From Candidatus Woesearchaeota archaeon (lineage in GTDB: Archaea; Nanobdellota; Nanobdellia; Woesearchaeales; SKGA01): a stretch of 24,726 nucleotides of DNA. Where the stretch lies: NCBI GenBank assembly GCA_016926395.1, contig JAFGOT010000020.1:1-24726 (forward strand), in the 5' to 3' direction. This document shows positions 9,922 through 24,302 of the stretch, piece by piece; positions within the stretch are counted from its first letter, which is position 1, and the number at the start of each line of letters is the position of its first letter. The notes under the pieces were generated by a model. That model saw only the letters and a list, made by a program, of their open reading frames with translations. It searched no databases and had not been told where the DNA came from. Position numbers and translations under genes: made by a program.

Positions 9922-9997
9922 TGGTGGGCTCACCCGGACTCGAACCGGGGATCAATGCCTTGTAAGGGCACTGTCATAGCCACTAGACCATGAGCCC
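9922..9997 (-). tRNA. tRNA-Val (UAC), intronless, CCA encoded
   Basis: Minus strand folds as GGGCTCA/TGAGCCC acceptor, GTGCC-CTTACAA-GGCAT anticodon arm, CCCGG-TTCGAGT-CCGGG T arm, then ACCA; 76 nt. Confidence 0.96.
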
Positions 9998-13129: not shown

Positions 13130-13540
13130 TTAATTGTGTTTGAAATCAAGAGTTTTGTCAATTTCTTTAGCAGTAGTTAGTAAATTATCAAACATAATAT
13201 CTACTTGACCTCGCATATCTTCAACAAGATCCTCTAAAGAATTGTGAGGAATATAATATTTATTTGCCTCAGCTACTATAATTCCTGCAGATGTTAAACG
13301 ATTTAAATGATGAACAACAGTTCCTCTGGTTAAACCGGTTTGAATTGCAAGCTCATCACTAGAAAGTTTGACACCTCGTTTTAAAGCACGAACGAGAGTT
13401 ATGAAAATACGATAACAACTCTTATCCTTATCTCTAAGAGTGAAAAGTCCAAGACGCTCACCAAACAAAAGAAGCAAATCATTAATATTGTTCTTTGGCT
13501 GACCACCTTCTCTAATTATCGTGAAACGAGTTATTCGCAT
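13130..13540 (-). CDS. Archaeal winged helix-turn-helix transcriptional regulator (ArsR/TrmB-like fold)
   Basis: LSSDELA..TGLTRGTVVHHLNRL..AGII wHTH signature followed by a C-terminal helix. Confidence 0.8.
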   Translation of the reverse strand: MRITRFTIIREGGQPKNNINDLLLLFGERLGLFTLRDKDKSCYRIFITLVRALKRGVKLSSDELAIQTGLTRGTVVHHLNRLTSAGIIVAEANKYYIPHNSLEDLVEDMRGQVDIMFDNLLTTAKEIDKTLDFKHN

Positions 13541-13697
13541 AATATAGAAAGAAGAAAGCTTGTATTTAAAGATTTCTACACTTGCGTTCCGTTAATCCTG
13601 TGGATGTTAATATAAGGATGTTCAAATAGGCTGTTCTTGAATAATTTTCGGTATTTATAAAGGAAGTCTTTTAAATATCCTTAATTTTAGTTTAAAA

Positions 13698-14363
13698 ATG
13701 CGCATAAAAGAGATCTCTTTAGATAATAGACCTAGAGAAAGAATGGAAAAGCAAGGAGCATCAGTACTTTCAGATGCAGAACTATTAGCAGTCATTTTAC
13801 AAAAAGGAACAAGAGAAGAAAATGTTATTGATATGTCGCATAGATTGATTTCTAAATATGGTGTCGATAAATTGTCATTTTGTAGCTTGAATGAATTGCA
13901 AGAAATTAAAGGGATTGGAAAAGCTAAAGCTTCTCAGATTTTAGCATTGTTTGAATTTAATAAAAGACATACTTTGTCTAAGCAAAACGGTAAACCAATA
14001 AAATCTGCAAAAGATGTTTATGACTATTGTTCTCCTAAACTTGTTGGAACAGACAAAGAACATTTCATGATTTTACATTTAGATACTCGTAATAGAGTAA
14101 TCAAAGATGAAATTGTATCAGTTGGTACTTTGAATAGTTCTTTGATACATCCTCGTGAAGTCTTTAAATCAGCAATCAAAGAAAGTGCAAACTCAGTAAT
14201 CTTAATTCATAATCATCCATCCGGAGTTGTCGAACCATCTGATGAAGATATTAAAATAACGGATGTTTTGATTAAATCTGGAGAATTATTATCTATAAAA
14301 GTACTTGATCATGTAATAGTTGGAAGCGAAGGATATTATAGCTTTAACGAGAGAAGAGATTAA
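13698..14363 (+). CDS. radC: RadC family protein (JAB/MPN domain)
   Basis: RPRER...G...LSDAELLA.IL..GT, HhH IKGIGKAKA, KEHF..L.LD..N.VI, GTLN.SLIHPREVF..AI...A..VIL.HNHPSG..EPS..D, LDHVIVG. Confidence 0.95.
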   Translation: MRIKEISLDNRPRERMEKQGASVLSDAELLAVILQKGTREENVIDMSHRLISKYGVDKLSFCSLNELQEIKGIGKAKASQILALFEFNKRHTLSKQNGKPIKSAKDVYDYCSPKLVGTDKEHFMILHLDTRNRVIKDEIVSVGTLNSSLIHPREVFKSAIKESANSVILIHNHPSGVVEPSDEDIKITDVLIKSGELLSIKVLDHVIVGSEGYYSFNERRD

Positions 14364-15835
14364 CTCTCTGTTGGATTTAAAGTTTTATTAAATTCTTTTG
14401 CACCCGTTATGATCTGATTTGAAATTTTCTTCAGTCTCTTACTTATTTTTTCATCCAGATTAGTTCCTGACTTTAATGTGATTTTTATCTGATCAGGCGA
14501 ATATGAAGGTTTACCTAATTCAATCAACTTTGCAGTAAGTAAATCTGCATCTTTTGATGCCCAATCACTTAATGTTTCAACTTCAAAATGAGTTTTTATC
14601 TGTTGGTAGTTTGAGATTATAAATTCTCTTTCACAAGGAAGAATACCTTCACAAAAAATATTAAATGGTATAACTGAAAGTAATTCATGGGGTGTTATTG
14701 AAGACTTGGTTATTTCACTCCATAAAACTGAATCTGAATAGTCGTAGCCCAACTTAAACCACTCTAAAGCATTATAACATTTTTTTAGATTTTCATTAGA
14801 AAAACTTTGATTAAAAGGTAGTGTGTAAGTCTCACTATTTAACAAATCAAGAGGAACTATTCGAATAATTGCTTCTGAACTTATTTCAACACTATTTTTT
14901 ATGTCTTTTAGGAGACTTTTAGCAGTTTGAAATGTTTCTGTTTTTATAATATAAACTCCAAATCTTGCATAAATAGGCATTTGTGTTGTTCCACCTGACA
15001 TACCCAATCTTGAAAACTTATGAAGATACTCTTTCAGGTTATTTCTATCCGTTGGATTAGTGTTATTTGTAAAAAGAACAAAAGTATTAGATGACTTTGC
15101 TTTTTTAGTAATCTCTTGATTTAATTTTTTTATTGTTTCTTCAGTAATGCCATACGTCGATAGTTTTCCTTCTTTAATAATCTTAATTAAAGTTTCATGC
15201 AAGTTCTTGTTTTGATGAAATTTATCTTTGATTTCAAAAAACTGTAAATCTTTGTAATAATTTGTAATAAAATTAATAATAACTTCTTTAACTTCTTTCT
15301 CAGTAATATTCTCAGATAAATCAATGCTTACTTTTTTTATTATTAATTGATTGTATATCTTTGCAAAATTCTTAATATCTTTATTTACGTGTGAATATTT
15401 AATTCCTAAAGATTCCGAAATTTGTTTTATAGACTCATAATTAATTGGAGATTTATCAAGTTCCCATTTCTTACAATAATAACATAATGTAATTATATGA
15501 ACAAAATCGCTAGTTATTCCTTGAATATTACTTTTTAAAAGTGAATCTACAATTTCTTTTTCAGTAGCAGACTCATCAAACTTTCTTGGTATTTCTAACT
15601 CAGGAAGACTTTTTGCAAAAAAATCTTGAAGATTCTTTGCAACTGTCTTATAGTCATTTTTAGTTTTCTTTCTTAATTTAATATCTGAAATTATATCTTT
15701 CATAGAAAGACCAGTAGCTCCAATTAAAATTCCAAAGATAGTTAAAGAGATTTCTTTATAGATTCCTGCAGGAGCTAAAAGAATAACTAAAACTTCAACA
15801 ATTACCAAAATAATAAAAGATATTAAAACAATCAA
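14360..15835 (-). CDS. Hypothetical protein with two N-terminal TM helices and a large soluble domain
   Basis: 491-codon ORF. TTG start overlaps the hsdS TGA (TTGA) with a GGGGAG SD-like sequence upstream. Residues 2-22 and 30-44 are hydrophobic. Confidence 0.8.
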   Translation of the reverse strand: MIVLISFIILVIVEVLVILLAPAGIYKEISLTIFGILIGATGLSMKDIISDIKLRKKTKNDYKTVAKNLQDFFAKSLPELEIPRKFDESATEKEIVDSLLKSNIQGITSDFVHIITLCYYCKKWELDKSPINYESIKQISESLGIKYSHVNKDIKNFAKIYNQLIIKKVSIDLSENITEKEVKEVIINFITNYYKDLQFFEIKDKFHQNKNLHETLIKIIKEGKLSTYGITEETIKKLNQEITKKAKSSNTFVLFTNNTNPTDRNNLKEYLHKFSRLGMSGGTTQMPIYARFGVYIIKTETFQTAKSLLKDIKNSVEISSEAIIRIVPLDLLNSETYTLPFNQSFSNENLKKCYNALEWFKLGYDYSDSVLWSEITKSSITPHELLSVIPFNIFCEGILPCEREFIISNYQQIKTHFEVETLSDWASKDADLLTAKLIELGKPSYSPDQIKITLKSGTNLDEKISKRLKKISNQIITGAKEFNKTLNPTES

Positions 15836-17004
15836 ACCAACTCCCCCTTAAACGCTTTTTGCATCAATGCATCAAATAACGTGTTTATTTCTTCAGTTGA
15901 AGATTGTTGTTTGGATTGGATTGATTCAATAAGTTGAACTTTCTTTGCAAACTCTTCTTGGAGTGGAAGAGGTGGGACTGATAAAGAAACGTTTTCAACT
16001 GTTTTTTTACTTATTTCTTTAAAAGTTGCTCCTGTCCCAATTGAATTTAGATAATCTTTTCTGGTTAACAACCAAACATAAAGATAGACTGGATGGATTA
16101 ATTCATCATTACAAATTATGTTTTTAAAGCCTTGATTTGAACACATTTCATTTCCCGCAATAGCAACTTTACCTATTGGGGCTCTAGTTGTTAACATAAC
16201 TGTTCCGATTGGGAAAAGTCTGTTACCAATAGATTTTAATCCTGCATCTGATATTTTTCTTTGAGTTTCATAATAGTAATAATTATCTCCATCAATTAAT
16301 TCTGCAGGAGTTATCCAATTTATTTTTCCATTCCAAAATTCTTTATTGGTTGTTTTTGGTGTTGAACCAGAAACGACTTCTCCTATCTCTGAAATTGTTT
16401 TAACACCCCATCCTTTCTCCTTTTTCACAGGGTCGCCAAACATTTCATAAAATAATGATTGAATTATCTTTTGTGTTTCTTTGTTTGTTTCTTCTCGTTT
16501 TTGTTTGAGATTCTTTGCTTTTTCAAGGATTGAAACGATTTGTTTTTGGACTGGGAGAGGTGGGAGAGGAAAGGAAAAATTACGAATATCTTTTAATGAA
16601 AGGAAATTTTGAGTTCCACCCCTTTTATTTTTTTTAATATATCTTTTGAATAAACTACTGCTCAATACATGTTTCAAGAATTTATTATAGATAATATCTT
16701 GATTAAATTTTATCAATGCTACATTTTTAATTGCGAACTCTCTTTCTTTTTTAACAATGATTGGATTTCCTATTGTTCCAATCATGGGCATGATTATATC
16801 TCCATCATCAACAAAGGATCTTTTATTAACTGCATCAAAATCTTCTTTGGAGATTAGATTTGCTGTTGAAAAATCAATTTTTCCATCTTTAACATTTTTT
16901 GAGGTAATTAAAGGATAACCTTCTTGTCTATACTTAGGGGAATCGTGTGTTCCATCACGAACATCACAAATATCATTTAGCTTTACTATTTTAGAATTTT
17001 TCAT
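15832..17004 (-). CDS. hsdS: Type I restriction-modification specificity subunit
   Basis: Two TRDs, each followed by a conserved region (PLPPLPVQKQIV; VPPLPLQEEFA...L...LMQKAFKGEL), plus GSTPKT and GATFKEIS. Start is ATG 17004 (GAGG SD) or 17013. Confidence 0.95.
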   Translation of the reverse strand: MKNSKIVKLNDICDVRDGTHDSPKYRQEGYPLITSKNVKDGKIDFSTANLISKEDFDAVNKRSFVDDGDIIMPMIGTIGNPIIVKKEREFAIKNVALIKFNQDIIYNKFLKHVLSSSLFKRYIKKNKRGGTQNFLSLKDIRNFSFPLPPLPVQKQIVSILEKAKNLKQKREETNKETQKIIQSLFYEMFGDPVKKEKGWGVKTISEIGEVVSGSTPKTTNKEFWNGKINWITPAELIDGDNYYYYETQRKISDAGLKSIGNRLFPIGTVMLTTRAPIGKVAIAGNEMCSNQGFKNIICNDELIHPVYLYVWLLTRKDYLNSIGTGATFKEISKKTVENVSLSVPPLPLQEEFAKKVQLIESIQSKQQSSTEEINTLFDALMQKAFKGELV

Positions 17005-17671
17005 TTTGAACATCCTCTTGATTAATTACTTTAGTAACATCATTAATTATTACTTCAAAAGCTTTAAGCTCTTCTGAGAAATATTTAAGATAAATTTTAT
17101 CTAACTCATTAAAAATTGAATCTGTATCGTTTTGTAATAAGAAAATATCGTCATTTATCTTGTGCAATAACCTGTTATTCTCTTTATCAAAAAATGTTTT
17201 ATGTTTGGGATTATTACACCCTTGTGTAAAAAGAACATCTTCTTCTTTTATTTCAGAAAGTGATTTCCAAAACTCTTTAGCAATATGTAGTTTTGAAGGA
17301 AGTGCTTTAATACTATATGCGCAATCAATACAGAATAATTCATTTTTATTCACATCTTCAGACTTAACAAAGTATTTACTAATAATTGGATATATCTCAA
17401 AAGCTAGGGATTCACATTTCTTTGCAAATTTTTCTAACTGTTCTTTTGTGATTGTTGCTCTAAAAATTGAATGAGATTCATTTGTATCTTGGTTTTTTAC
17501 ATGGATATCAAAAAAAGCCCCTTCTTCAACTTCTTTTGTATAAGCAGTTATGTGAAATTTGTTTTCTTTCTTATATGTTATTGGAATAACAAGACCGTCT
17601 TTTGAATTAGCCAAAGCTACAAAGTCCTCATAATTCTCTGAAATAGGAAAATAAATCTTGTCTTTGCTCAT
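16991..17671 (-). CDS. Hypothetical protein (226 aa) inside the hsd operon
   Basis: ATGA overlap with the upstream gene and overlap with the hsdS start; no recognised family. Confidence 0.78.
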   Translation of the reverse strand: MSKDKIYFPISENYEDFVALANSKDGLVIPITYKKENKFHITAYTKEVEEGAFFDIHVKNQDTNESHSIFRATITKEQLEKFAKKCESLAFEIYPIISKYFVKSEDVNKNELFCIDCAYSIKALPSKLHIAKEFWKSLSEIKEEDVLFTQGCNNPKHKTFFDKENNRLLHKINDDIFLLQNDTDSIFNELDKIYLKYFSEELKAFEVIINDVTKVINQEDVQNEKF

Positions 17672-18576
17672 TTTGAAACCTCATTTAATAACAAACAAAT
17701 CGTCATAACTTCATTCATTTGAAATCTTGCTGTTTCTCTTAGAAATTCAGAATCATCAAATTTTTCATTCGGACTATGTGATTTAAGTTTACTTCTCAAC
17801 CCATATACGCAAGCAATTTGTGATTTAATCTTTCCTTTAAACTCGGGCAATGTAAATATTCCTTTAAAATTATTTTTTTGAAAGTCTGCATAGTTATCTA
17901 CTGCAGATTTATCCATATTGCCAGTTTTAATCTTTAGAAATCTTTCAAGAGTTAAATAAGAATTTTCAATAGAACCTTTAAAATCTTTTTGAGTAAAATT
18001 TATGATAGAGTTAGTGAAGTACTCATTAGTCTTTTTGTCTTTAATTAAATCAAAAAACTGTTCTTTTGTTTGTTCTTCTTGCTCGTTTAATTTATTCTCA
18101 ATATATAAACGATCTAAAATTTTATTGTATGAAAATTGATAAGGTATTTTATGATAATCTAACAAGTTATTAAATGCTTTAATAAATTCAACTAAAATGT
18201 TACTTGTATCGTATCTTCTGGAACTAAAACTTCCAGTAACATGTTGTTCATATCTTTGAATTCTCTCAGACATACAATCAACATATAACTCTATACAAGA
18301 AAATAACTCATTTAGCTCACAATAAATAAAATAGTTTTCAAAATTATTCAAATGTTTTGAATCGATTAAGTATTTTAATTTAGATTTCATTAAATCTAAA
18401 GTATCGTTTGAATAAGTTCCAGTTATTACTGCAACACTAGAGGTATCTAATTGATTTAAATCAAAATCGTTGAAAAGCATAAGAATTTTCTTTCTTATTT
18501 CTACTGGAAAATAATCTTTATTTAATTCAGAATTTTTCTTTCTTTCTTTAAATAAACCTCTAGGAATTAATTTCAT
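17668..18576 (-). CDS. Putative HEPN-domain protein (AbiJ/Abi_C-like)
   Basis: All-helical C-terminus with DFKGSIENSYLTLERFLK (conserved-E helix, E211) and R261-SKLKS-H267 (Rx5H). Starts 3 nt after the hsdM stop. Family call by motif only. Confidence 0.62.
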   Translation of the reverse strand: MKLIPRGLFKERKKNSELNKDYFPVEIRKKILMLFNDFDLNQLDTSSVAVITGTYSNDTLDLMKSKLKYLIDSKHLNNFENYFIYCELNELFSCIELYVDCMSERIQRYEQHVTGSFSSRRYDTSNILVEFIKAFNNLLDYHKIPYQFSYNKILDRLYIENKLNEQEEQTKEQFFDLIKDKKTNEYFTNSIINFTQKDFKGSIENSYLTLERFLKIKTGNMDKSAVDNYADFQKNNFKGIFTLPEFKGKIKSQIACVYGLRSKLKSHSPNEKFDDSEFLRETARFQMNEVMTICLLLNEVSK

Positions 18577-18579
18577 CTT

Positions 18580-20058
18580 CTAAACCATCCTCTTCAGCTC
18601 TTCCAGCTCTTTCTTTATCTCATCTTCTGCTTTCATCACTCTTTCAATTATGTCTTTTGGATCATCATATTCGATGTCTTCGTGAGCTAACTCCCTATAA
18701 CGAGAAATTGATAAAATGTAATCATTCTCTTTAATTTCAGTGAATGGGACAACTATTGATTTTTCTCCGACTTTTTTCAAAGAATATGATTCAATAATGT
18801 CTGGAATGTCTCCTTTTCCATCAATGAAATCTCTTTTATCATCTAACGAGAAACCATCTGCAGTCATTTCATAGAACCAAACATTATCTGTTGTTCCACC
18901 TTTACTAAATATCAAAATAGAAGTTGCAACCCCTGAATATGGTTTAAACACTCCTGAAGGCATTGAAATGACTCCTTCCAATGAACATTTTTCCATCAAT
19001 AACTTTCGAACATCTTTGTGGGCATTTGAAGAACCAAACAATACGCCGTTTGGAACAATAACTGCACATCGTCCACCAATCTCAAGCAAATTATAGATTA
19101 ATTCTAAGAACAACAATTCTGTTTTTGTTGTCTTAACCATGAATTCATCATTAATGTCTGATTTATCTATCGAACCAGTAAACGGGGGATTAGCTAAGAT
19201 AACATCATAATCTGATTTAATGTCAAATGATTTAGATAAAGTATCTTTTCGTACAATATTAGGTTTCTCTAAACCATGTAACAACATATTCATTGAGGCA
19301 ATTCTTGCCATAGTTCCATCAAAATCAAAACCAAAAAAGGATTTGCTTTTCAGAAATTCCCAATGTTCCTTTCCAACAATCTTATCTCCTATTAGATTAT
19401 ATGGAACCCCTTGATCATCGTGTTTAATCATTTCTTTAGAGGTGTTTTTCAAAAGGACATGTTGATATGAATTGACTAAAAAACCGCCTGTTCCACACGC
19501 AGGGTCTAATACTCGCTCTCCCAATTTTGGATCAATGATATCAACCATCATTCGGATAATATGTCTTGGTGTTCGAAATTGACCTGCACGTCCTGCTTGA
19601 TTTAACTCCGATAATAAAAATTCATAAATGTCTCCTTGCGTATCTTGGTTTTGAGCAGTAATGTTTAACTCATCAATAATAGAAATTGCATCTTGCAAAA
19701 GAGATGGTTTTGGTATCATAAATACAGCATCTTTCATTTGCTCTGTAAATGAATCATCTCCTCGTTTTATGCCTTTAAAGAAAGGAAATACAACATCTCG
19801 AACATGAACTAATAAATCTTCAGCATTAAAGTGTTTGAAGTGTGACCATTTGCAATCGTCATGATCTTTAAAGATAGAGTTATATTCTTCTCCTTTTGCT
19901 TGTGCTCTTTTCATATGAAGATTATCCAAATCTTCAAGTCGTTTCATAAAAATCAAGTAAGATACTTGTTCTATTGCCGTAAGTGGGTTTGCAAGTCCTC
20001 CTGCCCAAAATCTATCCCATAATTTGTTTATTTTTGATTTAAGTTCTGCGGTTAACAT
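18580..20058 (-). CDS. hsdM: Type I R-M N6-adenine methyltransferase subunit
   Basis: GQFRTPRHII..MV, DPACGTGGFL (motif I), ANPPF (motif IV). N-terminus LKSKINKLWDRFWAGG..NPL..IEQ..YL.F.KRL is typical of EcoAI/EcoEI-like HsdM. Confidence 0.97.
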   Translation of the reverse strand: MLTAELKSKINKLWDRFWAGGLANPLTAIEQVSYLIFMKRLEDLDNLHMKRAQAKGEEYNSIFKDHDDCKWSHFKHFNAEDLLVHVRDVVFPFFKGIKRGDDSFTEQMKDAVFMIPKPSLLQDAISIIDELNITAQNQDTQGDIYEFLLSELNQAGRAGQFRTPRHIIRMMVDIIDPKLGERVLDPACGTGGFLVNSYQHVLLKNTSKEMIKHDDQGVPYNLIGDKIVGKEHWEFLKSKSFFGFDFDGTMARIASMNMLLHGLEKPNIVRKDTLSKSFDIKSDYDVILANPPFTGSIDKSDINDEFMVKTTKTELLFLELIYNLLEIGGRCAVIVPNGVLFGSSNAHKDVRKLLMEKCSLEGVISMPSGVFKPYSGVATSILIFSKGGTTDNVWFYEMTADGFSLDDKRDFIDGKGDIPDIIESYSLKKVGEKSIVVPFTEIKENDYILSISRYRELAHEDIEYDDPKDIIERVMKAEDEIKKELEELKRMV

Positions 20059-20059
20059 T

Positions 20060-20929
20060 TTATTTTACCCCATTAAGTTTGCTTAACATATCTATAGCTT
20101 CTTTCTCAAACTTTGAGAATGCAAACCATTTTTTTCCAAGATCTTTTAATGATGCTCCAAAATGATATACTTCTTTAGAATCTATAATAAGAAATCTATC
20201 GTGAGAGTTGTTAAATTGCTTTACAAGAATCGGTTCATGTTGCGCATTGAATTTTTCAACATCTAATTTTAATTGTTTGGAAATAGTTTTTGTATATATG
20301 TGAACAGAAACGCCTTTTTTTCGTTTAGAAAAAAAAGTTAAAACACTTTCATCTACATAATTATCAATTAACACGATTTGTTTTTTTGCTTCTTTAACCA
20401 AATCACAAACAAATACATATGCATCGAATACCTGTCCATCATAAAATATGCCTTGCTTTTTCTCACTGGTTTCAAGAGCTTTGAAAACTTTCTCAAATTT
20501 ATCATCATGCTCTAATTGTTTTAACTCGACTCTGTCTAATCTTTGAAAAACAGAAGCATTTTGAGCGATAAATTTACGCATTGCAACAAAGGCATTCATT
20601 ATGTTGATACTTACTTGGATTGCTGTTTTGCTTTTTAAAACTCCTGACAACATAGAAACGCCTTGTTCTGTGAAAACATAGGGTAAATATCGCCTTCCTC
20701 CCCACTCCGAACTTGAGGTAACAATTTGTGACCTCAAGATTTCCACCTCTTTTTCAGTCAATTGAAACATGAAACTTTCAGGAAATCTCTCTGAATTTCT
20801 TTTAACAGCTTGATTTAAAGCTTTTACAGGCACATTATACAGATTTGCTATATCGCTGTCCACGATAACTTGCATTCCTCTAATAGTATGAATCCTGCGT
20901 TTTATATCTGTAACTATTAACTCATTCAT
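20060..20929 (-). CDS. ORF6N (KilA-N-like) DNA-binding domain fused to a PLD-like C-terminal domain
   Basis: IRG.QVIVDSDIA.LY.V..KALNQAVKRN.ERFP..FMFQLT..E (ORF6N); C-terminal HDRFLIID...YHFGASLKDLG. GGAGGT SD at 20937-20942 gives start ATG 20929. Confidence 0.85.
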   Translation of the reverse strand: MNELIVTDIKRRIHTIRGMQVIVDSDIANLYNVPVKALNQAVKRNSERFPESFMFQLTEKEVEILRSQIVTSSSEWGGRRYLPYVFTEQGVSMLSGVLKSKTAIQVSINIMNAFVAMRKFIAQNASVFQRLDRVELKQLEHDDKFEKVFKALETSEKKQGIFYDGQVFDAYVFVCDLVKEAKKQIVLIDNYVDESVLTFFSKRKKGVSVHIYTKTISKQLKLDVEKFNAQHEPILVKQFNNSHDRFLIIDSKEVYHFGASLKDLGKKWFAFSKFEKEAIDMLSKLNGVK

Positions 20930-20957
20930 TGGACATACCTCCAATTCCTATAATGGC

Positions 20958-21010
20958 ATCACAGTTTGTGATACCTTTTCCAAACAGGTCGATTTCGACC
21001 CCTTTATAAG
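20958..21010 (-). promoter_or_regulatory. Promoter of the ORF6N-hsdM-hsdS operon: TATA box with two operator-like palindromes
   Basis: CTTATAAA at 21003-21010 (minus); GGTCGA-TT-TCGACC at 20987-21000; ATCACA-GTT-TGTGAT at 20958-20972. Confidence 0.6.
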
Positions 21011-21013
21011 TAG

Positions 21014-21424
21014 TCATTCTTCAACCTCATAATCAAGAACATCTGTTGGAACTATTGTTTTATCTCCTAGTTTTGCCTGTTCTTTTCTTCTTTCTTCTAG
21101 TGCTTTGTCAAGTGTAACTTTCATTTTTTCTAAAAAATCAACAGAGACATTCTTGCTCAAAATATGCTTTTGACTTCCTAAATCTAATTGCCACAGAAAT
21201 TTATCTTCAGAAATAGAATATTCAAAAGAATGTTTACCAGTTGCAGGAACTCCTTTGTCTTTTCGCAGAGTTCCAGGATGAAGCATGAACTCTAACTTCT
21301 TTTCAATTAGTCCTTTAATGAGTTTATTTGGACTAATACTTTCACGCTCACAGAAGTCATTAAGTTTCATCTTAAGATCTCTTTCGAGCTTTACTGATGT
21401 TGTAGTCCATTCACTTTCTGCCAT
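21014..21424 (-). CDS. Ribbon-helix-helix (CopG/MetJ-like) domain protein with unknown C-terminal domain
   Basis: TTTSVKL (strand), ERDLKMKLNDFCERE (helix A), SPNKLIKGLIEKKL (helix B). Own TATA box TTTATAAA at 21448-21455, 23 nt before the ATG. Confidence 0.75.
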   Translation of the reverse strand: MAESEWTTTSVKLERDLKMKLNDFCERESISPNKLIKGLIEKKLEFMLHPGTLRKDKGVPATGKHSFEYSISEDKFLWQLDLGSQKHILSKNVSVDFLEKMKVTLDKALEERRKEQAKLGDKTIVPTDVLDYEVEE

Positions 21425-21469
21425 AGAAAAGAGTAAAAGCTAACTTATTTATAAATATTTCTAAAATAT

Positions 21470-21498
21470 GGTTTACAAATTAGTTTATTTTGTAAACC
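21470..21498. repeat. Perfect 10-bp inverted repeat with 9-nt spacer at the hsdR stop (terminator or operator)
   Basis: GGTTTACAAA (21470-21479) and TTTGTAAACC (21489-21498). Confidence 0.8.
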
Positions 21499-24302
21499 TA
21501 TGTTTCGGCAAATACTTCTTTTTCTAGTTTTTGACACAACCCAACTAACTCTTTTAATTCGTGTTCCTCAAACAAAGGCATAGGTGCGTTTACACCAAAA
21601 TTCGTAAAAGGCGCTTCAAAGAAATCGCCAAATTCAATATGTTTTTTCCGCACAAATACAGTTTGTAGTGTTCTTAAGAAATTAATTTGATTTGCAGAAT
21701 ACACTTCATTATGTCTTGCTATAAAATTTCTAAATTCTTCATCAATCTTTTCTTCAGGAGTCTTTAACTTTTTCACATTTAATATGTGCTTCAAGAATTC
21801 TGTTAACGTTCCTTTTTGCTCATAGATTTTTTGAAGATTCTTCTCATTGATGTAAAGGTCAGCAGAATTCAAATTTTCTTCTAATTTTTCTACATCTTCT
21901 CCATAAATAGGGCTTCCTTCTTTAATTTTCATAACGGTTGGATCGGAGGTTGCAAGGTCATAGATTTTTTCTTCAACTTGCTTTTTATAGACATCAACAT
22001 ACTCTTCTTTGCCGTCAGGAGCGAATTCAATAAGTTTTCTTTGTTGAACAACATCATCAATATCAAGAATAATCATCGGTCTTGGTTCTTTTCTTTTGTA
22101 GGGCATTAATGGAGCGAATTCTTTTTCAAGCGTAGATATATTATCATAAGTTATTTCTTGCCAATACCCTTCTGTTAATACTTTATCAAGTAAAGTTTTT
22201 TTATCTTTAACTTGTTGCAAAGTTACTGGCAAACATCTAAGCCATTCAGTGATTTTTTCCTTTGCTCTTTCAAATTGTTTTTCATCACCTTTAGCAAGAG
22301 CAAGTTTTAATTCATCACACTTCAAAACAAACGATGCAATCATCGGGTTAACATCTTGTTGATATCTCATCAAAGGCATAATGTGTTTTTTCAAGTAGTT
22401 AGAATAATCTAAACCAACACCGTTCCAGAAATTTTCTTGGTTTACTTGTTCGATGTGATGGATATTTTCTTTAATACTTATGGACTCTTTTGGAAGCTGA
22501 TTAACAGAATCAAGAATTTTCTTTTGATTTTCCTTCATTCGAGGAAGATCTTTATTTTGATCAAAATATTTTACAAGTTCGACTCTTACTTTCATAATTC
22601 GTGTAGTAACAGCATCTGTTGCACTTGCTTCCTTTCCTTTTGGATGTAAATCAAAATACTCAAAATTTCTCCAAAAGTCAAAAATAAGAAAATTTTCTTT
22701 TTTACCAAAAGGCAACCATGAACGATTTTTACAAACAGAATCATGACGAGTTCCTCTACCAACCATCTGCCAGAACTTAATTTTTGAAAAGACTGGTTTT
22801 GCAAAAACAAGGTTGCAGACCTCAGGAACATCAACTCCTGTATCAAGCATATCTACTGAAATTGCGATTCGAGGGAAACTTTCTTTTTTGAATTCTTTTA
22901 GCAAGTCATCTGCTCTGCTATCTTCTGAAGTAATAACTCGAGTTAATCGTCCTTTGTATTCAGGATATAACTTTTCAAATGCTTCCCATATTCTTTTAGC
23001 ATGTTTTTTACTTACTGCAAAAATAATTGTTTTAGCTGGAAGAGTTCCTGATTCATCAAGAAGACAGTTTTCCATAAATTCTTTAACGATTACTTCATTT
23101 GTTCCAAGAACTGCAATCTTCTTTTCAATATCTGTTCCTTCCCAATTGAGTTCTTCTTCATCCATTCCTTCTTCGAGTAATTTCTTCTTCACAGCATCTG
23201 GTAAATCTCCTTTTCCCACACCTTCCATTTGAAAATGTGTTTGCACACCAGTTACTCGATAATCGCAAAGATAGTTTTCTTCTATTGCTTTATCATATGT
23301 GTAAAGAGCAGTGGGTTTTCCATCGTTACATTCGAAGAATCTGAAAGTATCCCTATCAATCCAATCTGAAGGTGTTGCAGTAAGTCCAATTTGAATCGCA
23401 TCAAAATATGTAAAAACTTCTTTCCATTTGTTATATATTGAACGATGACATTCATCTGCTATAATTACATCAAAAGAACCTATGGAAAATTCTTGAAAAC
23501 ATTCCATAAATGTTTGAATAGTAGAAACATGAATTTTTGAGTTTTTATCAAGTTCTCCTGCATAAATTTTTGATTTTGATTCAGGAGGTATGTGTTCTTT
23601 AAATGCATCAAATGCTTGATCTCGCAAAGCTTTTCTATCTGCAAGAAATAAAATTCTTTGAGCCTTTTTTCCTCTAAGAAGCACATCAACTAAAGACATT
23701 GCAGTTCTTGTTTTCCCACAACCTGTCGCCATCACTAACAAAGATTTTCTTTTTCCACGTTCAATATTATCAACAACTCTCTTAATGGCTTCAATTTGAT
23801 AAGGCCTATTTGTAATGTCTTCTTTTATTTTTAATTCTGACAAATTTTCTTTTGCAGAATTTTGAAATCTCAGTCGTTCTAAGTCTTCTTGAGTGTGAAA
23901 TCCCATCACTTTTCTTGGAGATTCATGAGGATAATTCCAGAAAATATTTTGATAACCATTTGAAAGATAAATAAAAACATCTTTGCCCGTTTGCTTTTTT
24001 ATATCCATTGCATATTGCTCAGCTTGCTTTTGACCGATAATAGGATCTTTGGTTGTTCGCTTAGCTTCAATTATTGCAAGTGGATCTCCATTAGAATCTA
24101 GGAGAAGATAGTCAACATATTTACTTTCTTCTTCATTTTTAAGAGTTTCAGAAACATCTTTATAGATTTTTTTTGTGAAATCAGATTGTTTTGTATCGAT
24201 TTCCACTCGAACATTAAATTTATCTTTAACATTCCAACTAGCACTAAGTAATTGTACATCAATTTTTTCAAGTCTTGTTTTCCATTCAGGCAAATCTTCC
24301 AT
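21498..24302 (-). CDS. hsdR: Type I restriction endonuclease/translocase subunit (EcoAI/EcoEI-like)
   Basis: Nuclease motif VDYLL....PLAIIEAK; helicase motifs RPYQ, MATGCGKT, FLADR, DECH, GLTATP, SVDMLDTGVD, FWQMVGRGTR; EcoEI-like C-terminal region (SANQINFL..L). Confidence 0.96.
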   Translation of the reverse strand: MEDLPEWKTRLEKIDVQLLSASWNVKDKFNVRVEIDTKQSDFTKKIYKDVSETLKNEEESKYVDYLLLDSNGDPLAIIEAKRTTKDPIIGQKQAEQYAMDIKKQTGKDVFIYLSNGYQNIFWNYPHESPRKVMGFHTQEDLERLRFQNSAKENLSELKIKEDITNRPYQIEAIKRVVDNIERGKRKSLLVMATGCGKTRTAMSLVDVLLRGKKAQRILFLADRKALRDQAFDAFKEHIPPESKSKIYAGELDKNSKIHVSTIQTFMECFQEFSIGSFDVIIADECHRSIYNKWKEVFTYFDAIQIGLTATPSDWIDRDTFRFFECNDGKPTALYTYDKAIEENYLCDYRVTGVQTHFQMEGVGKGDLPDAVKKKLLEEGMDEEELNWEGTDIEKKIAVLGTNEVIVKEFMENCLLDESGTLPAKTIIFAVSKKHAKRIWEAFEKLYPEYKGRLTRVITSEDSRADDLLKEFKKESFPRIAISVDMLDTGVDVPEVCNLVFAKPVFSKIKFWQMVGRGTRHDSVCKNRSWLPFGKKENFLIFDFWRNFEYFDLHPKGKEASATDAVTTRIMKVRVELVKYFDQNKDLPRMKENQKKILDSVNQLPKESISIKENIHHIEQVNQENFWNGVGLDYSNYLKKHIMPLMRYQQDVNPMIASFVLKCDELKLALAKGDEKQFERAKEKITEWLRCLPVTLQQVKDKKTLLDKVLTEGYWQEITYDNISTLEKEFAPLMPYKRKEPRPMIILDIDDVVQQRKLIEFAPDGKEEYVDVYKKQVEEKIYDLATSDPTVMKIKEGSPIYGEDVEKLEENLNSADLYINEKNLQKIYEQKGTLTEFLKHILNVKKLKTPEEKIDEEFRNFIARHNEVYSANQINFLRTLQTVFVRKKHIEFGDFFEAPFTNFGVNAPMPLFEEHELKELVGLCQKLEKEVFAET

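What the first reader, a model, noticed from the sequence alone, without database searches (positions are those of the whole stretch)
17668..18576. HEPN-motif protein between hsdM and hsdS: possible PrrC-like guard without an ATPase
Seen: helical C-terminal domain with the E211 helix (SYLTLERFLK) and R261-x5-H267 (codons at 17794-17796 and 17776-17778), 3 nt after the hsdM stop. Established: Rx4-6H is the HEPN RNase active site; AbiJ/Abi_C and PrrC/RloC use HEPN, and PrrC is held silent by its Type I R-M complex. Inference: the ~190-aa N-terminal domain, which has no Walker motifs, senses the state of the R-M complex and triggers RNA cleavage. The sensor would then differ from PrrC's ABC ATPase.
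Basis: partly seen in the sequence, partly recalled or inferred. Interest (0 to 1): 0.75.

Follow-up and report, generated by a model that had tools for sequence, protein, structure and literature searches.

The report
AbiJ-like HEPN gene inside archaeal restriction operon
The 302-residue gene between hsdM and hsdS is a divergent member of the known AbiJ abortive-infection family (AbiJ-NTD4 sensor domain plus a HEPN RNase domain with intact catalytic residues), from a rare clade that almost always sits inside restriction-modification operons; this is a useful annotation, not a new kind of system.

Summary
ORF 17668-18576(-) starts 3 nt after the hsdM stop, has no Walker motif, and carries E211-x3-K215 and R261-S-x4-H267 at the stated codons.

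The motif alone is weak: 38% of shuffles contain an Rx4-6H. Three other results carry the case:
- H267 is invariant, and R261 and E211 nearly so, across 22 relatives down to 22% identity. The R-H spacing varies from 4 to 6.
- Residues 176-302 of the model match solved HEPN domains first (Z 11.3-10.0).
- All 23 loci keep the RS-x4-H motif.

The N-terminal domain is not a new sensor. It is a sub-threshold AbiJ_NTD4 (27 bits against a cut-off of 34), and hhalign to bona fide NTD4 proteins gives 97.4% probability (E 1e-11).

The protein is therefore an AbiJ-type NTD4-HEPN protein in a DPANN (Woesearchaeota-like) archaeon. The clade is rare: 15 clusters among 1.84 billion representatives. Of 17 lineages, 12 lie in Type I R-M gene strings, usually hsdM-X-hsdS with overlapping or nearly abutting stop and start codons, and one more abuts a Type IIG enzyme. 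The 226-aa neighbour is not a conserved partner.

PrrC-like silencing by the R-M complex is untested, and the general idea was published in 2013. Verdict: new member of a known kind, moderate interest.

The parts
17668..18576 (-). X: 302-aa AbiJ-like protein (AbiJ_NTD4 + HEPN), P0001
   Evidence: ORF and translation. Family alignments A1 and A2. hhalign to the bona fide NTD4 family gives 97.4% probability.
18109..18552 (-). N-terminal AbiJ_NTD4-like domain (about residues 9-156)
   Evidence: PF18863 matches these coordinates at 27 bits, E 3.2e-6 per genome, profile positions 3-137 of 152, under the 34-bit cut-off. The 75%-identical relative P0002 matches PF18863 at E 3.1e-4 over residues 8-158. 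Folded alone: pLDDT 77.4, pTM 0.77, alpha+beta. No convincing solved fold, best Z 5.3.
17671..18051 (-). C-terminal HEPN domain (residues 176-302)
   Evidence: The top VIA-align matches over residues 176-302 are HEPN structures: 1ufb Z 11.3, 2hsb 10.7, sacsin HEPN 3o10 10.2, 1wol 10.0, AbiA 8oz7 9.2. LsoA, RnlA, Csm6, AbiV and HepS follow.
17932..17946 (-). E211-x3-K215 (ERFLK), the upstream acidic motif of HEPN domains
   Evidence: E211 is at least 90% conserved in 22 sequences. EKYLK or ERFLK sits at the same place in 22 of 23 loci. The Ex3[KR] motif is defined in PMC3710099.
17776..17796 (-). R261-S262-x4-H267, the predicted RNase active-site motif
   Evidence: Codons read. H267 is invariant and R261/S262 nearly invariant, with spacing of 4-6 residues in distant members. 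Present in all 23 loci.
18580..20058 (-). hsdM (Type I methyltransferase), ends 3 nt before X
   Evidence: PF02384 5.2e-64 and PF12161. PADLOC MTase_I 3.2e-170.
15832..17013 (-). hsdS (specificity subunit)
   Evidence: PF01420 8.7e-41. PADLOC Specificity_I 7.8e-75.
21498..24302 (-). hsdR (restriction/helicase subunit, EcoEI_R_C type)
   Evidence: ResIII, SWI2_SNF2, EcoEI_R_C and HSDR_N. PADLOC REase_I 2.1e-150.
16991..17671 (-). 226-aa near-orphan gene, ATGA-overlapped with the X stop and overlapping the hsdS start; not a conserved partner of X
   Evidence: No family in Pfam, NCBIfam or PADLOC. Only 3 relatives in 5.8 billion clusters. Absent next to X in the other loci. No similarity to the L004 gene in the same slot.

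Best explanation
X is a divergent, single-polypeptide AbiJ-type abortive-infection effector. It has an N-terminal AbiJ-NTD4 domain, the presumed sensor or auto-inhibitor, fused to a C-terminal HEPN domain. The E211, R261-S262 and H267 site is predicted to cleave RNA without metal. The gene is co-transcribed with hsdM and hsdS of a Type I R-M system in a DPANN archaeon, and probably translationally coupled to them, so that DNA restriction and an RNA-targeting suicide or dormancy layer are made and inherited together. I commit to the reading that NTD4 itself holds the HEPN domain off until an infection cue arrives, as in single-gene AbiJ/SadR systems. On this reading the R-M linkage provides co-expression, co-mobility and layered defence, not obligatory physical masking. 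Shown here: domain identities, motif conservation and the conserved gene position. Inferred: RNase activity, the trigger and the defence role.
For: HEPN fold: the top five structural matches over residues 176-302 are HEPN domains at Z 9.2-11.3. Catalytic-type residues are conserved down to 22% identity, with variable Rx4-6H spacing, and are present in all 23 loci. They fit the published definition of Rx4-6H, a polar residue after the R, and an upstream Ex3[KR] (PMC3710099). NTD4 homology: PF18863 at 27 bits on the window and E 3.1e-4 on P0002; hhalign of A2 against A3 gives 97.4% probability, E 1e-11, over 225 columns spanning the NTD and the first half of the HEPN domain; the A2 HMM scores all 20 bona fide NTD4 proteins at 13.6-31 bits; the ESM Atlas nearest clusters are Abi_C + AbiJ_NTD4 at 0.96 (a lead only). 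An Abi_C protein, SadR, is an experimentally shown HEPN RNase: its R, N and H mutants lose both RNase activity and phage defence, and it works as a single gene (PMC13590631). Context: 12 of 17 distinct lineages lie in Type I R-M gene strings of two different HsdM/HsdR types, one lies beside a Type IIG enzyme and one beside a ResIII helicase; stop and start codons repeatedly overlap or nearly abut. No conserved second gene accompanies X. The gene is sporadic: it was not found in 299 other sampled genomes of the same order.
Against: No Pfam, NCBIfam or PADLOC model reaches its threshold on P0001 itself, and Abi_C (PF14355) gives no hit even at E<=10. Foldseek found no PDB match at E<=0.001. The VIA Z of 11.3 is below the roughly 13 that helical bundles can reach by arrangement alone (note). 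The model is of medium confidence (pLDDT 75.7, pTM 0.50), and I could not inspect coordinates to check that E211, R261 and H267 meet. The slot between hsdM and hsdS holds many unrelated cargo genes in these loci, so position alone does not prove functional coupling. No activity data exist for any member of the clade, and the mechanism of lactococcal AbiJ is still unknown (PMC13064643).
Confidence: 0.55

Rival explanations
1. PrrC-like guard. X binds the HsdM2-HsdS core through NTD4 and is kept silent by it. A viral anti-restriction protein or loss of the R-M complex then releases the HEPN RNase.
For: X is nearly always placed directly between hsdM and hsdS. Stop and start codons overlap by 4 nt or lie 3 nt apart in several lineages (window, L001, L010, L013, L014, L015). 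X keeps that position while the R-M family around it changes, including within the closest X subgroup. One member abuts a Type IIG enzyme. The PrrC-EcoprrI precedent, and its proposed extension to at least 16 R-M-linked HEPN clades, are published (PMC3710099).
Against: There is no evidence of any physical contact. In several loci other genes separate X from hsdM or hsdS: a Schlafen/AlbA_2 gene, an OLD-family gene, and unknown genes of 166-226 aa. L003 has no R-M gene within 10 kb on either side. Other AbiJ/Abi_C proteins work as stand-alone single genes. The hsdM-hsdS interval is a general cargo slot.
Confidence: 0.25
2. Two-gene toxin-antitoxin pair. The 226-aa protein downstream, which overlaps X by ATGA, is the antitoxin or adaptor that neutralises the HEPN toxin.
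For: The X stop and the 226-aa start overlap as ATGA. HEPN toxins often have cognate antitoxins (PMC3710099). Several other loci also have a small unknown ORF between X and hsdS. Two of these, in L017 and L022, are related to each other.
Against: The 226-aa protein has only 3 relatives in 5.8 billion clusters, whereas X has a wider family. It was not found in any of the 22 other X loci. The genes in the same slot in L004, L013, L017 and L022 are unrelated to it. In L001, L010, L012, L014 and L015, X runs straight into hsdS. There is no MNT or other known antitoxin domain.
Confidence: 0.07
3. Non-nucleolytic HEPN. X is an RNA- or nucleotide-binding accessory or regulatory subunit of the R-M system, for example modulating methylation or restriction, and not a toxin.
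For: Some HEPN domains, such as MtlR and the MNT-fused versions, are non-catalytic binders (PMC3710099). Cells carry the gene with no conserved antitoxin.
Against: Non-catalytic HEPN domains typically lose Rx4-6H. Here R, the polar residue after it, H and the upstream E are all retained across the whole clade.
Confidence: 0.1

Closest known systems
AbiJ / Abi_C family with AbiJ-NTD4 (CBY_0614 / STM4504-type proteins; Anantharaman et al. 2013, PMC3710099)
   Same: Same length (about 280-310 aa) and the same two-domain order. Profile-profile homology covers the NTD and the first HEPN helices. Both have a conserved acidic helix and a C-terminal His. Both are single-gene defence candidates.
   Different: P0001 falls below the Pfam cut-off for PF18863 and gives no hit to PF14355. 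This clade has a classical R-S-x4-H, whereas the canonical NTD4 proteins aligned here have Thr at the position hhalign pairs with R261 and an invariant adjacent R-H dyad. The clade comes mostly from DPANN archaeal and candidate-phylum MAGs, whereas AbiJ was listed as bacterial. R-M linkage was reported only for some N-terminal-domain-less ('solo') AbiJ proteins.
SadR of Staphylococcus aureus (Abi_C HEPN RNase; PMC13590631)
   Same: A protein of 266 aa with a C-terminal R-polar-x-H HEPN motif that defends against phages as a single gene. R, N and H are needed for both RNase activity and defence.
   Different: The motif is RNEYGDAH (R-x6-H) against RSKLKSH (R-x5-H) here. The N-terminal region differs. 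SadR sits near rlmH or in SCCmec, not inside an R-M operon. No detectable sequence match was tested or found here.
PrrC / EcoprrI (and RloC)
   Same: A HEPN-type RNase gene embedded in a Type I R-M operon, in a layered DNA-plus-RNA defence arrangement.
   Different: PrrC has an N-terminal ABC ATPase that senses nucleotides, whereas X has none. The PrrC HEPN domain is a distinct clade. Masking by the R-M enzyme is shown for PrrC and untested here.
Other R-M-embedded HEPN clades (ApeA, AbiU2, EC042_2821, pEK499_p136; PMC3710099 Table 1)
   Same: HEPN genes inserted in R-M operons and interpreted as a second line of defence.
   Different: They have different HEPN clades and N-terminal domains. 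None was matched by P0001 in Pfam.

Membership tests
HEPN superfamily | All-alpha, four-helix up-down bundle of about 100-120 residues | tested here: met
   Residues 176-302 match 1ufb (Z 11.3, 117 aligned residues, rmsd 3.6), 2hsb (10.7), 3o10 (10.2), 1wol (10.0) and 8oz7 AbiA (9.2). LsoA, RnlA, Csm6, AbiV and HepS also appear. Caveats: Foldseek was silent, and the Z values lie in the range that helical bundles can reach by arrangement alone.
HEPN superfamily | Conserved Rx4-6H motif with a polar residue after the R | tested here: met
   R261-S262-x4-H267. H267 is invariant, and R261 and S262 are at least 90% conserved in 22 sequences. Distant members have R-x4-H or R-x6-H. Present in all 23 loci.
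HEPN superfamily | Upstream conserved acidic residue, typically Ex3[KR] | tested here: met
   E211-R-F-L-K215. E211 is at least 90% conserved. ExxxK is present in 22 of 23 loci. Definition.
HEPN superfamily | Metal-independent endoRNase activity | not testable with these tools
   Needs biochemistry.
AbiJ_NTD4 (PF18863) | Score at or above the Pfam gathering cut-off (34 bits) | tested here: not met
   27 bits, E 3.2e-6 per genome, profile positions 3-137 of 152. hmmscan of P0001 listed nothing. P0002 scores 21.7 bits.
AbiJ_NTD4 (PF18863) | Homology to bona fide NTD4 proteins by profile-profile comparison | tested here: met
   hhalign of A2 against A3 (20 proteins, each recorded with or matching PF18863): probability 97.4%, E 1e-11, 225 columns. 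The A2 HMM hits all 20 at 13.6-31 bits.
Abi_C (PF14355), the AbiJ HEPN domain | Match to the Pfam Abi_C model | tested here: not met
   No hit for P0001 at E<=10 or for any of the 22 family members at E<=1. hhalign of A2 against one Abi_C protein aligns R261 with its motif Arg, but without significance (E 0.3). The ESM Atlas points to Abi_C clusters, which is a lead only.
PrrC/RloC anticodon nucleases | N-terminal ABC/Rad50-like ATPase with Walker motifs | tested here: not met
   No ATPase family and no Walker A pattern.
PrrC/RloC anticodon nucleases | Gene embedded in a Type I R-M operon (PrrC) | tested here: met
   hsdM-X-(226 aa)-hsdS in the window. The position is conserved in relatives.
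PrrC/RloC anticodon nucleases | Silenced by physical association with the R-M enzyme and activated when it is inhibited | not testable with these tools
   Needs pull-downs, genetics or complex prediction.
HEPN-MNT type TA pair | Adjacent minimal nucleotidyltransferase antitoxin | tested here: not met
   Neither neighbour matches NTP_transf_2 or any other family.

The most novel reading that the evidence does not exclude
This clade is a dedicated guard of the Type I methyltransferase core in DPANN archaea and other small-genome lineages. The AbiJ-NTD4 domain docks on HsdM/HsdS, or on the methyltransferase part of Type IIG enzymes, and releases a HEPN RNase when viral anti-restriction proteins disable the enzyme. 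That would be an ATPase-free analogue of PrrC and would give NTD4 its first assigned ligand.
Probability: 0.2. Interest if true: 0.7.

Novelty: new member of a known kind. Interest (0 to 1): 0.35.

Why it matters
The result gives a firm annotation to a protein that every curated model misses: an AbiJ-type NTD4-HEPN predicted RNase. It also extends the AbiJ family into DPANN archaea, whose antiviral systems are little studied. It defines a small clade whose position between hsdM and hsdS survives exchange of the surrounding R-M system. That makes the clade a clean test case for two questions. The first is whether R-M-embedded HEPN proteins in general are gated by the R-M complex, an idea proposed in 2013 and shown only for PrrC. 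The second is what AbiJ N-terminal domains sense. The general concept and the domain architecture are already published, so the surprise for a specialist is modest.

Tried and rejected
- Direct family scans of P0001 gave nothing: Pfam at E<=10, NCBIfam at E<=1 and PADLOC. A profile search of PDB sequences also gave nothing.
- Foldseek against the PDB gave only GPCR and repeat noise, for both the whole model and the NTD.
- The NTD folded alone has no convincing solved homologue. The best match is the Cas13a HEPN-2 region at Z 5.3, which is within noise.
- Rejected: the 226-aa neighbour as a conserved partner.
- Rejected: treating the bare Rx4-6H motif as evidence, since 38% of shuffles contain one.
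- tblastn of P0001 against the plasmid and phage collections, and a scan of viral contigs, found no relatives.
- hhalign of the family against a single Abi_C protein was not significant.
The contexts of P0002-P0010 therefore could not be fetched by identity, and contexts come from the search for related loci instead.
- Model coordinates are not exposed, so the proximity of E211, R261 and H267 could not be measured.

Full report
**1. What is in the window**

The minus strand carries one string of genes:
- hsdR, 21498-24302 (ResIII / SWI2-SNF2 / EcoEI_R_C)
- a 136-aa ORF, 21014-21424
- an ORF6N protein, 20060-20944 (PADLOC candidate PDC-S05, E 1.5e-128)
- hsdM, 18580-20058
- the gene in question, X, 17668-18576
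- a 226-aa ORF, 16991-17671
- hsdS, 15832-17013
- a 491-aa ORF, 14360-15835

The hsdM stop TAG ends at 18580 and the X start ATG begins at 18576, a gap of 3 nt. R261 is AGA at 17796-17794 and H267 is CAT at 17778-17776. The X stop overlaps the start of the 226-aa ORF as ATGA. X has no Walker A motif.

The left half of the window encodes eIF-6, prefoldin, SepF, FtsY/SRP54, ArgRS and enolase. The genome is about 1 Mb. A same-order genome is labelled Candidatus Woesearchaeota. The host is therefore a DPANN archaeon and the locus is chromosomal.

**2. Is the motif meaningful?**

Not alone. 38% of shuffles of this protein contain an Rx4-6H, and a second one starts at R105. The weight comes from conservation and fold.

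The family is small. There are 10 clusters at 90% identity among 5.8 billion, and 15 representatives at 50% identity among 1.84 billion proteins.

In a 22-sequence alignment reaching 22% identity, H267 is one of only two invariant columns. R261, S262, E211, L210 and L214 are at least 90% conserved. The most distant members have R-x4-H or R-x6-H in place of R-x5-H. That is the variation that defines the HEPN motif (PMC3710099). E211 sits in E-x3-K, the second HEPN motif named in that paper. All 23 loci recovered keep RS-x4-H at the same distance from the C-terminus.

**3. Fold**

AlphaFold2 on the 10-sequence alignment gave pLDDT 75.7.

Foldseek found no match at E<=0.001. The exhaustive VIA-align search placed HEPN structures first over residues 176-302:
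- TT1696, 1ufb: Z 11.3
- AF_0298, 2hsb: Z 10.7
- sacsin HEPN, 3o10: Z 10.2
- ST0689, 1wol: Z 10.0
- the AbiA HEPN domain, 8oz7: Z 9.2
- then Roquin, LsoA, 4nqf, SO_3166, Csm6, RnlA, AbiV and HepS

These Z values are within the range a helical bundle can reach by arrangement alone. Even so, the near-exclusive HEPN content of the top ranks, together with the motifs, makes the assignment solid.

**4. The N-terminal domain is a known one**

- The ESM Atlas pointed to Abi_C + AbiJ_NTD4 clusters at 0.96 (a lead only).
- Pfam PF18863 (AbiJ_NTD4) matches the 75%-identical relative P0002 at E 3.1e-4 over residues 8-158.
- A whole-genome scan scores the window at 18109-18552 with 27 bits, E 3.2e-6, profile positions 3-137 of 152. 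This is under the 34-bit cut-off.
- I built an alignment (A3) of 20 proteins, each recorded with or matching PF18863. hhalign of the X family against it gives 97.4% probability, E 1e-11, over 225 columns. The match runs from the N-terminus into the HEPN helix that carries the conserved Glu.
- The X-family HMM scores all 20 of these proteins at 13.6-31 bits.

X therefore has the AbiJ-NTD4 + HEPN architecture defined by Anantharaman et al. 2013.

It is a divergent branch. Abi_C (PF14355) does not match any member. The canonical NTD4 proteins aligned here have Thr at the position hhalign pairs with R261 and an invariant adjacent R-H dyad. X keeps the classical motif.

Folded alone, the NTD is a confident alpha+beta domain (pTM 0.77) with no convincing solved relative (best Z 5.3).

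**5. Context in relatives**

Twenty-two further loci came from genomes and metagenomes. Their X proteins fall into 17 lineages at 90% identity, counting the window.

Contexts by lineage:
- Twelve lineages lie in Type I R-M gene strings. The usual order is hsdM-X-hsdS, with stop and start codons that overlap or nearly abut. Examples are L001, L010, L013, L014 and L015.
- One (L023) overlaps the end of an MmeI-like Type IIG enzyme gene.
- One (L026) precedes a ResIII helicase gene.
- Three show no R-M gene. Two of these are on contigs under 3 kb. L003 has no R-M gene within 10 kb on either side.

Two different Type I families are involved: the EcoEI_R_C type as in the window, and a HindI-like type as in L001. 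Both occur within the closest X subgroup, so X keeps its slot while the R-M system around it changes.

The same interval also hosts unrelated cargo:
- a Schlafen/AlbA_2-HATPase_c_4 gene
- an OLD-family ATPase-TOPRIM gene
- Bro-N or ORF6N genes
- Hachiman, just past hsdS in L013

The interval is therefore also a general insertion site.

The 226-aa neighbour has three relatives in all and is absent from every other X locus. It is not a conserved partner.

X was not found in 299 other sampled genomes of the same order, as expected for a sporadic defence gene. No relatives were found on plasmids, in phages or in viral contigs.

**6. Mechanism**

Established background:
- The His and Arg of Rx4-6H are needed for RNase activity in PrrC and the KEN domain, and the His also in RloC.
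- The Abi_C protein SadR is a single-gene defence whose R, N and H mutants lose both RNase activity and protection.
- The mechanism and trigger of lactococcal AbiJ remain unknown, though phage escape mutants map to single-strand annealing proteins.

Inference: X is a HEPN RNase held inactive by its NTD4 domain and switched on during infection. It is made together with the methyltransferase core, so that restriction and RNA-level abortive defence are layered.

Whether the R-M complex itself gates X, as in PrrC, is open. The conserved position and close gene spacing favour gating. Three things argue for autonomy: the intervening cargo genes, the stand-alone L003 copy, and the single-gene behaviour of relatives. 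My weights are about 0.55 for autonomous AbiJ-type control, 0.25 for PrrC-like gating, 0.10 for a non-catalytic role and 0.07 for a TA pair with the 226-aa gene.

**7. Novelty**

The architecture, the HEPN assignment of AbiJ, and the idea that R-M-embedded HEPN proteins act like PrrC are all in PMC3710099. That paper lists AbiJ as bacterial and reports R-M linkage only for some AbiJ proteins without an N-terminal domain ('solos').

New here is a rare, archaeal-leaning NTD4-fused clade that lies below all curated thresholds and is tied to the hsdM-hsdS interval. That makes it a new member of a known kind.

Noticed in passing
window 14360-24302: The Type I R-M operon carries five interleaved accessory genes. 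The ORF6N protein (20060-20944) matches PADLOC candidate defence family PDC-S05 at E 1.5e-128. The 136-aa, 226-aa and 491-aa genes match no family.
   Followed up: partly
L013:3711-7242: A Hachiman-like pair, HamA (PF08878, 4.1e-26) plus a DEAD-box helicase, lies directly after hsdS in a locus that also carries an X homologue. This makes a three-layer defence string.
   Followed up: no
L004:11546-13276; L002:1591-3084 and L016-L021: Other cargo sits in the same hsdM-hsdS interval beside X homologues: an OLD-family AAA_15/TOPRIM protein, and a Schlafen AlbA_2 + HATPase_c_4 + wHTH protein.
   Followed up: no
alignment A3 (canonical AbiJ_NTD4 proteins, e.g. L007:1105-1989): The canonical NTD4 proteins aligned here lack the classical Arg of Rx4-6H. 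They have Thr at the position hhalign pairs with R261, an invariant adjacent G-I-R-H dyad, and an invariant DYRNSIKES helix. Their active site may be arranged differently from textbook HEPN.
   Followed up: no
window 18052-18576 (NTD model m82ab782a5d36): The best structural matches of the NTD include the HEPN-2 regions of three Cas13 structures: 5xwp at Z 5.3, 7os0 at 4.3 and 6vrc at 4.2. These are within noise, but they are the only recurring theme in the list.
   Followed up: no
window 9922-9997, 13130-14363: tRNA-Val (TAC) lies at 9922-9997. A winged-HTH gene (13130-13540) and a RadC/JAB gene (13698-14363) flank the R-M island on its inner side. This may mark the edge of an integrated element.
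   Followed up: no
window 16991-17671: The 226-aa gene is real but nearly an orphan. Its relatives, at 93% and 58% identity, occur only on short metagenome contigs, and a 133-aa fragment is recorded with a PF00512 tag.
   Followed up: partly
window 18241-18264 (R105-H112 of X): A second Rx6H (RIQRYEQH) lies in the NTD. H112 is invariant only in the closest subgroup and not in the wider family, so it is probably fortuitous.
   Followed up: yes
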